Of a stretch of DNA of 64,000 nt, positions 25,393 to 42,928 are shown piece after piece. The stretch is from a virus. The stretch spans positions 1 through 64,000 of the IMG/VR virus record IMGVR_UViG_3300020429_000529; one strand, 5' to 3'. Position numbers and translations under genes: made by a program. The first letter of the stretch is position 1. Each line of letters opens with the position of its first letter. The notes beneath the pieces were generated by a model. The model was not told the origin of the DNA. It saw only the letters and a list, made by a program, of their open reading frames with translations, and searched no databases.

Positions 25393-25492
25393 GCGTGAAA
25401 CATGAATCGATTCTTGGAATCCGGTCGATAGCACTCTTGCACACGACTGCGCGAAGGTCTTCCAAGAGTCGCCAACTTTGACCTTCACGACC

Positions 25493-25522
25493 AGAAAGCC
25501 CTGACTTCGGTTGGGGCTTTCT
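25493..25522 (+). terminator. strong hairpin with UUCG loop (terminator or ncRNA helix)
   Basis: AGAAAGCCC-TGAC-TTCG-GTTG-GGGCTTTCT. Confidence 0.6.
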
Positions 25523-25529
25523 GCGTGTA

Positions 25530-26065
25530 AGACTGAGCGCTAAAGCGCCGATCGCCGACTCAGTGAGAAGACATAGTTGAGCGCGGTCGCGTGCATTCGT
25601 CGGCGGCTTGATGTTTGATTGATGAACTATTGGGAGGCAAGGGCTCCTCACTCCTGCCGTAGCTACGGACGTATCGTAGTCGCGCCCCAAAGCGCGGTGG
25701 CTGTAGGTATAAATGCAACCTACAGTTTCTCCTGCTCTCGTTCAGAGAGATAGCTGCTGTTGTTGCTCCTGGCGACTCCTCACTACAACAGTTGGCGAAG
25801 AGAGACGGTGACTGGCTGAGAGTTGAGCATTACCGACCTAAAGAGATCAGGTTCAACAACTCCCCTGATACGGGAGGAGCAGCCGCTCATGTTTTCTTAT
25901 GGACATGACTGCGGCTGAGGAGTCGTCACGAGCGAACAGCAGCAAAGCTGAAACAGTGGCTCAAGAACACTCACTATTGACTACTTACAAATCAACCCCA
26001 ACGGGGTTGATGCCGAATGAGCGAAGCGAATGAGGCAAAACGATCTGAAACCGCGCCAATGAACC
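25530..26065 (+). ncRNA. candidate large structured non-coding RNA (unassigned; strand inferred)
   Basis: No credible ORF. Many helices with G-U pairs, e.g. 25753-25782 pairing with 25916-25943, 25701-08 with 25718-25, and 25991-99 with 26003-11. Confidence 0.5.
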
Positions 26066-32436: not shown

Positions 32437-32707
32437 GGCTTTAGTTTACCTCTTTTCTCTGCCAGATCGTTTCACCAGTCAGTGTCAATCTCGCTTTTTC
32501 TGCCACTGACGGATTTGACAGGAAACGGCGAATCGCATTTCAAATCCAGCAAAAACAGCAGGAAAATAGCTATAGAACGCCGTACCTGAAGATGCAAGAA
32601 ATGTGGAAGACTGTCTCTGGTGAGTTCGTTCGTCGATACAATCAGAAGAGTTGTAAGAAATCTCACAAAAGGAGAATGGTTTGTCACATAGTATGAAATG
32701 GAATAAA

Positions 32708-33028
32708 GCGATGCTTTGACATCAATGGTTTTTCACTTAGAGTATTGACGTAGTTGGTCGTTCGTCGCACACTCACTGATGAAGGCAAGACCAAAGAGCA
32801 AACAGCGAAAGCTTAGGAGTGAGGAAGGGCCAAGCAAATGCTTTGTTTGGCTTGCGATTCAAAAGAGCAATAATGACACTTGAATCGGCGTCTGATTAAG
32901 GCATAACTCATTTGCAGCCTTTTCGAGACGTTTTCGAGTCTCCCAAGTCAGCGAGTGGTCCGCAGGGTAGAAAGCGGCGCAAATAGGCAATGTAGGCGAG
33001 GGCCTTACCCATGTAGAAGAAACGTCGC
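32708..33028 (+). ncRNA. candidate ~320-nt structured ncRNA with paired 5'/3' ends
   Basis: GCGATG(C)TTT 32708-17 pairs with AAACGTCGC 33020-28. At least six internal helices; immediately followed by a perfect terminator hairpin. Confidence 0.55.
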
Positions 33029-33040
33029 AATGTAAACAGT

Positions 33041-33078
33041 GAAACAGCCCTGTTCTGAGCAGAGAACAGGGCTGTTTC
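33041..33078. terminator. bidirectional terminator hairpin
   Basis: GAAACAGCCCTGTTCT-gagcag-AGAACAGGGCTGTTTC, a perfect 16-bp stem. Confidence 0.85.
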
Positions 33079-33101
33079 TATTCAACGATACGATCTGGTG
33101 G

Positions 33102-33428
33102 TTAGATGTTGATAGGAGAGACAGACGTAACCTTACCAGATTCTTCGTCGAACTCCACGATGGCAAGCTTCTTGTTCTGAACTTCCGCATCGCGAGCATG
33201 TGTAAGCAGGAAGATACCTCTCGAAAGTACGCTTGGAATCGGAGCCTCAAAGTAACGAGACAGATTCTCCATCAGAGCCATCTGTTTTTCGTGACAATGT
33301 AGGACAATGGTCGTTCCAGACGACTGAGAGTCTTGCGTATTGTGGGGTTGTGCCTCTGGTTCCACCCGTCTTGGGACAGGAACAGGAGATGCAAAGGCTG
33401 ACTGAAGCATGCTCCAAAACTTACTCAA
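33102..33428 (-). CDS. ribbon-helix-helix (CopG-like) regulator
   Basis: AAGGAGG RBS with TTG start; IVLHC...LMENLSRYF...SVLSRGIFLL..ARDAE..NKKLAI. Confidence 0.6.
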   Translation of the reverse strand: MSKFWSMLQSAFASPVPVPRRVEPEAQPHNTQDSQSSGTTIVLHCHEKQMALMENLSRYFEAPIPSVLSRGIFLLTHARDAEVQNKKLAIVEFDEESGKVTSVSPINI

Positions 33429-35058: not shown

Positions 35059-35670
35059 CTACGAGAGACGGATAGCTTGATCGATGATGTCGTCAAGAAT
35101 GGTCTCTGAAGCGTACCAACCGACAGGTCCGCCAGTAATGAAATCCTGAACGTATTCGTTGTAGGCGTTTCGCCATTTGCTTCGGTCATCATTTGATGCG
35201 CGGCAAAGTCTTTTGCGAGTAAGGCCCGTTGCTTCTTTGGCATGAGCTTCCGCTTCTTTGCGCAGGTCAGCCCATTCGGAGACGGTTTCGGTAATCGGTC
35301 CCCAGTGCAGAAGCCGTTCATCTTGGGAAATGGCCCATTGATCGATATTGAACTGGCTGAACTTGAGGTATTTCTTGGTGAAGGAGACCGCTCGCGGGTT
35401 GAACCCCTCGTCTTCAAGCTCGTTGGAAGGGATCTCAAACGCTCCGAACGGCGTTTTATCGATCGCGAGAAGGTCGCCCGAGTTGAAGTTGCACCTGACC
35501 AGAAGGTCAACGTCTTTGATGTTGAACTTAGGATTGGATATGTTCTCAGCGAACGATCCCCAGACGTAAACGCCTTCTACGTCTGGCAGCGCAGCGATTT
35601 CCGCCGCTGCTTGGCGGATGTATTCGTCGGCGTCCCCGACAGTCGGCATGGCTCTTTCGTACCAGCGCAT
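35059..35670 (-). CDS. Pol-beta-type nucleotidyltransferase with WY leader
   Basis: Starts MRWYERAMP; VYVWGSFA...KDVDLLV. Confidence 0.75.
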   Translation of the reverse strand: MRWYERAMPTVGDADEYIRQAAAEIAALPDVEGVYVWGSFAENISNPKFNIKDVDLLVRCNFNSGDLLAIDKTPFGAFEIPSNELEDEGFNPRAVSFTKKYLKFSQFNIDQWAISQDERLLHWGPITETVSEWADLRKEAEAHAKEATGLTRKRLCRASNDDRSKWRNAYNEYVQDFITGGPVGWYASETILDDIIDQAIRLS

Positions 35671-42103: not shown

Positions 42104-42928
42104 ATGAAGACCGAAGAGGAAATCAACTGTCTGTGGGACAGGCTTGAAGAGCAAAAGAAGAGCGATAAACCGGATCCAGATGAAGTTCTTGCTGTCAGGA
42201 ACGAGCTTGCGTCCGAGTTTTACAGTATCGTTGAAGACGTTGCATCTCGTATGGCTTTGAAGCTGAAAGAGATCACGGCAGAAGAATGCGCATCATACGG
42301 CGTAGACGGACTGTACGAGGCTATTGATAAGTTTGACAGAGAGCGAGGGGTCAAGTTCAGGACTTTTGCTCCGCACCGCATCAAGGGAGCCATCCTCGAC
42401 AATATCCGCAAGGCGGACTGGGTTCCTCGTCTTGTTCGGCATCGCAACAATCTCATCGAGAAACATCGCAGTGCTTACTACAAGGAGCATGGGGAACATC
42501 CTACCGATAAGCAGCTTGCTAAGCTGATTGGCATGCCAGTCGCAGAGCTTCGCAAGATTGCCAAAAAGTCAAGGCCTGTCAATGTTGTTAGCCTCAACGC
42601 TACGCCAGCGAGCTATAATGACAGCGACGGAGAAGGAGATGATCTGACTCATGTAACCGGCGAGATTCATGACCCAATGGACGGAATGCTCCGCAGAGAG
42701 ATGTTCCAGAAGTTCATGGGCAAGAACTTCACCAAGCTTGAGCGGAAAATCATTTACCTGCATTACTACGAGGGTTTGACGATGAAAGAAATCGCAGATG
42801 AAACAAACTTCTCTGAGTCTCGCATCAGTCAGATGCATGGCGAGGTAATGCGTCGTCTCCGAGAGAAGGTGGAAAGAAACCCCCAGTACGCCGCCAATCT
42901 CGAAGCCATGTTCCAAGCCGCAAGCTGA
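42104..42928 (+). CDS. RNA polymerase sigma factor, FliA/WhiG (sigma28-like) family
   Basis: GLYEAIDKFDRERGVKFRTFAPHRIKGAILDNIRKADWVPR; region 4 YYEGLTMKEIA...SESRISQMH. Confidence 0.93.
   Translation: MKTEEEINCLWDRLEEQKKSDKPDPDEVLAVRNELASEFYSIVEDVASRMALKLKEITAEECASYGVDGLYEAIDKFDRERGVKFRTFAPHRIKGAILDNIRKADWVPRLVRHRNNLIEKHRSAYYKEHGEHPTDKQLAKLIGMPVAELRKIAKKSRPVNVVSLNATPASYNDSDGEGDDLTHVTGEIHDPMDGMLRREMFQKFMGKNFTKLERKIIYLHYYEGLTMKEIADETNFSESRISQMHGEVMRRLREKVERNPQYAANLEAMFQAAS

What the first reader, a model, noticed from the sequence alone, without database searches (positions are those of the whole stretch)
32708..33078. Closed ~320-nt structured RNA candidate with RNase-P-like hints
Seen: an ORF-free gap whose ends pair (GCGATG-C-TTT 32708-17 with AAACGTCGC 33020-28; ACAT with ATGT inside). 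Internal helices: TTGGTC/GACCAA (32754/32789), AGC-GAAA-GCT (32804), GCCAAGCAA/TTGTTTGGC (32829/32843), CGATTCAA/TTGAATCG (32855/32880), CTGATT/AGTCAG (32892/32946) enclosing two small hairpins, and CCGC/GCGG. A perfect 16-bp terminator follows. GAGGAAGGGCC (32821) could alternatively pair with GGCCTTA (33001) just before the 3' closing strand, and CAAATAGG occurs at 32980. Known: bacterial RNase P RNA has GAGGAAAGUCC pairing with GGCUUA (P4) before P1, and CCAAAUAGG. Here the conserved bulged U would be G and P4 would be short, so it is not canonical RNase P. Inference: either a new phage ncRNA class or a highly derived RNase-P-like RNA.
Basis: partly seen in the sequence, partly recalled or inferred. 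Interest (0 to 1): 0.75.

Follow-up and report, generated by a model that had tools for sequence, protein, structure and literature searches.

The report
New structured RNA of marine megaphages
The gap holds a real, conserved gene for a folded non-coding RNA that matches no catalogued family and is kept by one group of giant uncultured phages; it is not RNase P (this phage carries a miniature RNase P elsewhere), and its job is still unknown.

Summary
The window lies in a complete 498,568-bp marine megaphage. Five syntenic homologues, 58-73% identical, share a three-way junction with a conserved strand GAAGG-N-A-W-RACCA and an invariant 11-nt loop AAACAGYGAAA. They also share a basal arm and a pseudoknot. 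Base pairs are kept through compensatory changes: 96% of cells pair and 22 of 27 pairs change on both sides. RNAalifold recovers the core from a sequence-only alignment. All six have a FliA-like promoter motif, a Shine-Dalgarno site with a start codon and a near-immediate stop, and a terminator shared with a convergent gene. The RNase P hints are not conserved, sit in the wrong order, and score nothing against RNase P models. The phage's real, miniature RNase P lies elsewhere (C1:338360-338601); the scan has reported such miniature RNase Ps before. There is no Rfam match, and the scan has not reported this family on other DNA. Best reading: a stand-alone, trans-acting phage RNA that binds a partner as scaffold or decoy. 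Expression and function are untested.

The parts
32619..32642 (+). Conserved promoter-like motif RGTG-N11-(C)GATA-N-AAT; its -10 part resembles the FliA/sigma-28 box GCCGATAA; likely start of the primary transcript about 32649
   Evidence: Motif with the same 11-nt spacing in all six homologues, 117-142 nt before the junction (L254 is degenerate). The phage encodes a FliA/WhiG-like sigma factor. CGATAA is about 2.4-fold enriched upstream of phage genes (n=15). The RGTG-N11 form is not repeated genome-wide. Promoter function is inferred.
32670..32719 (+). Leader: Shine-Dalgarno AGGAGA, TTG start at 32681, 12-codon unconserved mini-ORF
   Evidence: All six have an SD, a start codon 5-8 nt later and a stop within 1-13 codons; three are AUG-stop and one is AUG-Lys-stop.
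32716..32743 (+). Sigma-70-like match TTGACA-16-TAGAGT; seen only in this phage, possibly a second start near 32750
   Evidence: 2 found, 1.0 expected; not conserved in homologues.
32756..32961 (+). Basal arm: Pa (GGTC 32756 with GTCC 32958, one mismatch here; 4-5 bp covarying in the others), bulge, Pb (CACTC-A-CTGAT 32770-80 with GTCAG-C-GAGTG 32947-57)
   Evidence: cognate pairing ranks 10 of 720 permutations, 0 of 1000 shuffles.
32763..32979 (+). Pseudoknot: bulge strand CGTCGC 32763-68 with GCGGCG 32974-79
   Evidence: A different 5-6-bp pairing in each homologue; cognate sum ranks 3 of 720 permutations, 0 of 1000 shuffles.
32781..32795 (+). Conserved junction strand GAAGG-N-A-W-RACCA(A)
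   Evidence: Invariant columns in alignment A1.
32796..32814 (+). Pc hairpin: 4-bp covarying stem closing the invariant 11-nt loop AAACAGYGAAA (32800-32810)
   Evidence: 100% of cells paired, 3 of 4 pairs change on both sides; recovered by RNAalifold.
32816..32946 (+). Pd (GGAG 32816-19 with CTCC 32940-43), UGA/4-nt internal loop, next helix, variable domain of about 20-100 nt (here two hairpins at 32829 and 32855), then CAA joiner
   Evidence: Pd 100% paired, 3 of 4 pairs change on both sides; next helix 96% paired; cognate rank 2 of 720.
32980..33040 (+). Variable 3' region, including a weak closing helix (TGACGT 32746 with ACGTCG 33022) and a second copy of the loop word at 33034-44
   Evidence: (closure not significant).
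33041..33083 (.). Bidirectional intrinsic-terminator-like hairpin, 16 bp, with U-rich runs on both strands
   Evidence: a terminal hairpin is present in all six homologues.
33102..33428 (-). Convergent 108-aa gene of unknown family, always next to the RNA; also present in relatives that lack the RNA
   Evidence: no NCBIfam match.
42104..42928 (+). Phage FliA/WhiG-like sigma factor, the likely reader of the RNA's promoter
   Evidence: TIGR02479, E 4.7e-49, below the curated cut-off; the link to the promoter is inferred.

Best explanation
A stand-alone, trans-acting non-coding RNA gene of one lineage of ~500-kb phages. Shown: six syntenic copies keep one fold, namely a bulged basal arm locked by a pseudoknot and capped by a three-way junction. 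The sequence-invariant parts are single-stranded (a 15-nt junction strand, an 11-nt loop, CAA), while helices and a peripheral domain vary freely. Inferred: the phage's FliA-type sigma factor transcribes it from about 32649 to the terminator (about 430 nt). A ribosome loaded on the empty SD-start-stop leader protects the 5' end. The conserved junction packs into a compact surface that binds a specific partner, most likely a host or phage protein, as a scaffold or decoy during the middle or late phase of infection.
For: Five syntenic homologues beside changing upstream genes. A model from one homologue finds four others tested, including this one, in 105 kb and all five in 52 kb, and aligns two of them across the fold. 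96% of cells pair and 22 of 27 pairs change on both sides, against 28-49% pairing when slid. RNAalifold on a sequence-only alignment finds Pb, Pc and Pd. Cognate-pairing tests support the arm, the pseudoknot and Pd. The conserved promoter motif, leader and terminator, and a convergent downstream gene in all six, rule out control of a downstream ORF. One copy per genome. Carriers form one side of a 99/98 and a 100/100 branch. No RT, group I intron or RnpA in the genome.
Against: No transcript data (searches gave nothing). No partner is identified. Only six distinct members. Single-sequence folding is not better than shuffles. Relatives lack it at this site and in the 333 kb held of one of them, so it is probably dispensable. 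One strain changes the otherwise conserved UG at 32821. Alignment A6 was fitted to the structure, which inflates its pair counts. Binding versus catalysis cannot be told from sequence.
Confidence: 0.45

Rival explanations
1. A ribozyme, possibly a remodelled group I intron core. The invariant junction would be a J8/7-P7'-like catalytic strand that switches to pair with the 5' RGUC strand, and the RNA would process phage or host RNAs in trans.
For: The conserved pattern also picked up a true group I intron, L260, and the core profile scores it 8.5 bits, above 200 of 200 shuffles. That test is circular, because L260 was selected by the pattern. GUC/GAC pairing with the 5' arm is possible in 4-5 of 6 and beats shuffles (5 of 1000). 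Pseudoknot plus invariant junction is typical of ribozymes (own knowledge).
Against: No RF00028 hit in the genome and no Rfam hit on the RNA or its homologues. Model R2 does not hit group I introns. The helix order does not fit a simple circular permutation of a group I core. The P7-like pairing has no cognate preference (418/720) and is broken in L247 and L254. No interrupted gene flanks it.
Confidence: 0.15
2. A ribosome-directed RNA. The SD-start-stop leader recruits a ribosome in cis, and the folded domain holds, stores or remodels it to steer translation toward phage mRNAs.
For: SD plus start plus a stop within 1-13 codons in all six, with no conserved peptide. The genome invests heavily in translation: 78 tRNA calls, tmRNA, miniature RNase P.
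Against: The spacing between the SD and the fold varies (71-106 nt to the junction). Protection of the 5' end explains the leader more simply. No direct evidence.
Confidence: 0.15
3. A derived RNase P RNA, or a separately encoded specificity module that completes the phage's miniature RNase P.
For: The phage's RNase P lacks most of the specificity domain. Short likenesses recalled from memory: Pd'-CAA-Pb' resembles P5'-J5/15-P15, and ACAGUGA resembles J11/12.
Against: No hit with RF00010, RF00011 or a 92-sequence profile that does detect the miniature RNase P. R2 does not hit RNase P RNAs. The longest complement to the miniature RNase P is 8 nt, at chance level and in the variable domain.
Confidence: 0.06
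4. A cis-acting leader (riboswitch or attenuator), or an antisense regulator of the neighbouring gene.
For: A leader mini-ORF, a junction fold and a terminator are the parts of attenuators (own knowledge); a possible alternative pairing exists.
Against: The next gene is on the opposite strand in all six. The overlap with its mRNA is limited to the shared terminator. No riboswitch family matches.
Confidence: 0.07
5. Not an RNA: a single-stranded DNA structure or a chance set of hairpins in a promoter gap.
For: z about 0 for the single sequence; no expression data.
Against: Compensatory changes and A-U/G-U exchanges on the + strand; conserved promoter motif, SD and terminator on that strand.
Confidence: 0.05

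Closest known systems
GOLLD (RF02032) and ROOL (RF03087), large ornate RNAs of phages and prophages with unknown function (10.1101/2024.12.08.627333)
   Same: Phage-encoded, stand-alone, pseudoknotted, defined by covariation, function unknown; the carriers are tRNA-rich phages.
   Different: No Rfam match. Much smaller (core 155-240 nt against about 650-800). It lies outside the tRNA islands, has a FliA-like promoter motif and an SD-start-stop leader.
Bacterial RNase P RNA, type A (RF00010), and the miniature phage form at C1:338360-338601
   Same: A pseudoknot enclosing a large inserted domain; a helix-CAA-helix joint; similar size.
   Different: No conserved GAGGAA-NUC or ACAGAA-C-CGGCUUA strands, no P4 with a bulged U, wrong strand order; pseudoknot strands vary freely.
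Group I intron ribozyme (RF00028)
   Same: The junction strand resembles J8/7-P7' (UGAAGG-AUAGUCC); Pd with its internal loop and CCAAG resembles P4-P5-P6; the GAAAG of Pc resembles P9.
   Different: No stable P7 or guanosine site, no P1 or P3 in group I order, no splice sites or host gene, no model hit.

Membership tests
Bacterial RNase P RNA (RF00010/RF00011) | Covariance-model match | tested here: not met
   No match at E<=10; the same search finds the miniature RNase P elsewhere at 55.5 bits.
Bacterial RNase P RNA (RF00010/RF00011) | Conserved CR I (GAGGAAAGUCC) and CR V (ACAGAA..CGGCUUA) forming P4 with a bulged U (feature from own knowledge and the Rfam consensus) | tested here: not met
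   GAGGAAGGGCC and GGCCTTA differ by 2-4 and 2-3 letters in the homologues; G32821A in strain L083; the region is occupied by other covarying helices.
Bacterial RNase P RNA (RF00010/RF00011) | Order P1-P2-P3-P4 ... P2'-P4'-P1' | tested here: not met
Bacterial RNase P RNA (RF00010/RF00011) | Cleaves pre-tRNA 5' leaders | not testable with these tools
   Needs an in vitro assay.
Group I intron (RF00028) | Covariance-model match | tested here: not met
   the reverse search with R2 finds no intron.
Group I intron (RF00028) | P3/P7 pseudoknot with a G-C guanosine site next to a bulged A | tested here: inconclusive
   GUC/GAC can pair in 4-5 of 6 but without covariation (418/720) and in competition with the covarying Pa.
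Group I intron (RF00028) | Interrupts a gene, with P1 G-U splice site and terminal G | tested here: not met
   It lies between its own promoter motif and terminator; the flanking genes are whole and the upstream one differs between phages.
GOLLD / ROOL / OLE / raiA | Match to the family model | tested here: not met
   No such family at E<=10 for the window stretch and L289, or at E<=5 for L247, L248, L254, L272.
GOLLD / ROOL / OLE / raiA | Forms RNA-only multimers | not testable with these tools
   Needs mass photometry or cryo-EM.
Retron / RT-associated ncRNA | Reverse transcriptase encoded next to it or in the genome | tested here: not met
   No PF00078 match in the complete genome; neighbours are not RTs.
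Riboswitch / attenuator | Same-strand regulated ORF downstream | tested here: not met
   Convergent gene downstream in all six.

The most novel reading that the evidence does not exclude
The invariant junction is the active site of a new phage ribozyme class, perhaps a rewired group I core that has lost splicing, or a ribosome-capturing RNA that loads ribosomes through its own start-stop leader. Either would work alongside the phage's 78 tRNAs, tmRNA and miniature RNase P.
Probability: 0.15. Interest if true: 0.9.

Novelty: new variant of a known kind. Interest (0 to 1): 0.58.

Why it matters
It adds a well-defined, synthesisable RNA family to the short list of orphan structured RNAs of phages. 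The smallest member has a core of about 155 nt. A pseudoknot plus an invariant three-way junction is the anatomy of ribozymes and ligand-binding RNAs, and the conserved empty ribosome-loading site is unusual. It also shows that this megaphage carries a set of dedicated RNAs: tmRNA, a miniature RNase P, this RNA and a second conserved structured region. The caveat is that the family is small and its function is not shown.

Tried and rejected
Rfam at gathering and E-value thresholds: only a tRNA in the window, nothing on the RNA. blastn against cultured phages and plasmids: nothing beyond short chance matches. Three DNA patterns from this RNA in IMG/VR gave chance hits and some group I introns, but no homologue (checked in 27, 68, 77). 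A pattern for RNase P gave chance hits only. The upstream 256-aa gene is not syntenic in other phages. More distant relatives lack the RNA at this site. A hammerhead reading of CUGAUGA..GAAA was rejected by eye: no cleavage triplet, and the motif is not conserved in L254 or L289. A boxA reading of CTTTGACA at 32714 is weak. Base pairing of the conserved strands with the miniature RNase P, the tmRNA or the second structured region is at chance level. A six-sequence model was too long to calibrate. The supplements of PMC10690425 (10,000 candidate phage RNAs) are not held, so overlap with that list is unchecked. Literature searches found no description of this RNA or of a phage RNase P. Bacterial genomes were not searched with the model.

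Full report
Context. The window is the first 64 kb of a complete 498,568-bp virus record with direct terminal repeats. It has 78 tRNA calls and a tmRNA. Identical copies of the flanking gene occur in Tara Oceans and other marine assemblies. No cultured relative exists: the terminase is at most 26% identical in INPHARED. The finding lies in a 665-nt gap between a leftward 256-aa gene and a convergent 108-aa gene.

Observation. Without that hairpin the stretch folds no better than shuffles (z -0.23). Rfam has no match at E<=10 beyond hairpin noise. The single sequence therefore could not settle the question.

RNase P test. RF00010 finds a 242-nt match elsewhere in the genome, C1:338360-338601, inside the tRNA cluster (55.5 bits, E 5e-17). 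It has GAGGAAGGUC, ACAGAACC and the catalytic-domain helices, but almost no specificity domain. Neither RF00010 nor RF00011 hits the candidate. A profile of 92 bacterial RNase P RNAs detects the miniature form but none of the six candidate RNAs. A 98.5%-identical strain has G32821A. The proposed P4' strand also comes before the inner closing strand, which reverses RNase P order (own knowledge). The genome has no RnpA.

Homologues. A conserved neighbouring gene (35059-35670) led to syntenic contigs, and the convergent gene to one more. Five carry a homologue at the same place, with different genes upstream: L247, L248, L254, L272 and L289. They are 58-73% identical over the arm-to-pseudoknot span and 73-88% over the junction. 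Five more distant relatives lack it at this site, and model R2 finds nothing significant in 30 virus records. On trees of two neighbouring proteins, carriers and non-carriers fall on two sides of one branch (99/98 and 100/100). The trees are unrooted, so gain versus loss is not settled. There is one copy in the genome.

Structure. The conserved fold is a basal arm (Pa, a bulge, Pb) capped by a three-way junction. The junction consists of the strand GAAGG-N-A-W-RACCA, hairpin Pc with the invariant loop AAACAGYGAAA, one A, helix Pd with an internal loop and a variable domain of about 20-100 nt, and CAA (GAA in L289). A model built from L289 alone ranked the other members first and aligned L254 and L272 across the fold with different letters in the same pairs. 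On the six-row alignment, 96% of cells pair and 22 of 27 pairs change on both sides; 0 of 500 shuffles reach this, and slid registers give 28-49%. That alignment was fitted to the structure and misplaces the outer arm in some rows. With fixed windows, cognate pairing ranked 10, 3 and 2 of 720 permutations for the basal arm, a bulge-to-downstream pseudoknot and Pd. The window sequence takes the covarying fold within about 2 kcal/mol of its minimum.

Signals. All six have RGTG-N11-(C)GATA 117-142 nt before the junction, degenerate in L254. This resembles the FliA -10 box GCCGATAA (own knowledge; the word occurs in FliA papers such as PMC4183435), and the phage encodes a FliA/WhiG-like sigma factor. 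All six then have an SD, a start codon 5-8 nt later and a stop within 1-13 codons, with no conserved peptide. All six end in a terminator-like hairpin facing a convergent gene. This is the layout of a stand-alone RNA gene of about 430 nt here, perhaps trimmed to about 300. Transcription itself is inferred, because no reads could be obtained.

Mechanism. Helices vary while single strands at the junction are invariant. That points to a tertiary pocket or binding surface, not to base pairing with a target; no complementarity above chance was found to the miniature RNase P, the tmRNA or the second structured region. With no same-strand gene downstream and no RT, the most likely role is a trans-acting scaffold or decoy for a protein, stabilised by ribosome loading on the empty leader (0.45). 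Rivals are a ribozyme with group-I-like parts (0.15), a ribosome-capturing RNA (0.15), a cis element (0.07), an RNase P derivative (0.06) and no RNA (0.05). The group I likeness is a lead only. The pattern hit a real intron, but that test is circular, R2 and RF00028 do not cross-hit, and the helix order does not fit.

Comparison and novelty. The nearest kind is the orphan ornate phage RNAs GOLLD and ROOL, whose functions are unknown (10.1101/2024.12.08.627333). This RNA matches none of them. Megaphages of similar size were reported with only tRNAs and tmRNA detected by Rfam (PMC8172020). I found no description of this RNA, but could not check the candidate list of PMC10690425. The scan has no look-alike on other DNA.

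Noticed in passing
G000:C1:338360-338601 (+), L001:1501-1742: Miniature RNase P RNA (242 nt, RF00010 55.5 bits) between two tRNA-Gly genes; catalytic domain present, specificity domain reduced to a short hairpin; no RnpA in the genome. Not found in the 333 kb held of relative G022.
   Followed up: partly
window 25400-26065: A second ORF-free structured region with counterparts in L274, G022, G024, L272 and L248 (shared AGGTCGG, TCGCTACGCTCG-like words), present also in relatives that lack the 32.7-kb RNA. A different element: ncRNA or origin.
   Followed up: partly
G000:C1:379578-379649 and 383668-383743; G022:C1:12932-13011: tRNAs with CUA anticodons (amber suppressors), two here and one in the relative; TAG is the rarest stop of long ORFs (16 of 153), but the coding-density test showed no clear recoding.
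   Followed up: partly
G000:C1:361529-361880: Phage tmRNA with tag ANSNTLRMAA, preceded, like the miniature RNase P and a tRNA-Phe, by a boxA-like TCTTTGACAA.
   Followed up: no
window 32475-32515: Inverted repeat GTCAGTG...CACTGAC upstream of the leftward gene, also seen in L247, L248 and L289; a possible operator or hairpin for the leftward transcript.
   Followed up: no
window 33034-33044: A second copy of the invariant loop word (AAACAGTGAAA) just before the terminator; the convergent mRNA's tail is its complement. Only 6-8 of 11 letters in the homologues.
   Followed up: partly
window 42104-42928: FliA/WhiG-like sigma factor within a syntenic block (macro domain, HNH, MptE-like, DHH) conserved across the clade.
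   Followed up: partly
G022:C1:298900-300950: In this relative the site holds an HNH-like gene in two frames and a peptide deformylase split in two pieces on opposite strands, intact in G024: an inversion or assembly artefact.
   Followed up: no
L247:12116-12838, L248:5676-6398: An RNA ligase gene (PF09414) lies two genes from the RNA in two carriers but not in the others.
   Followed up: no
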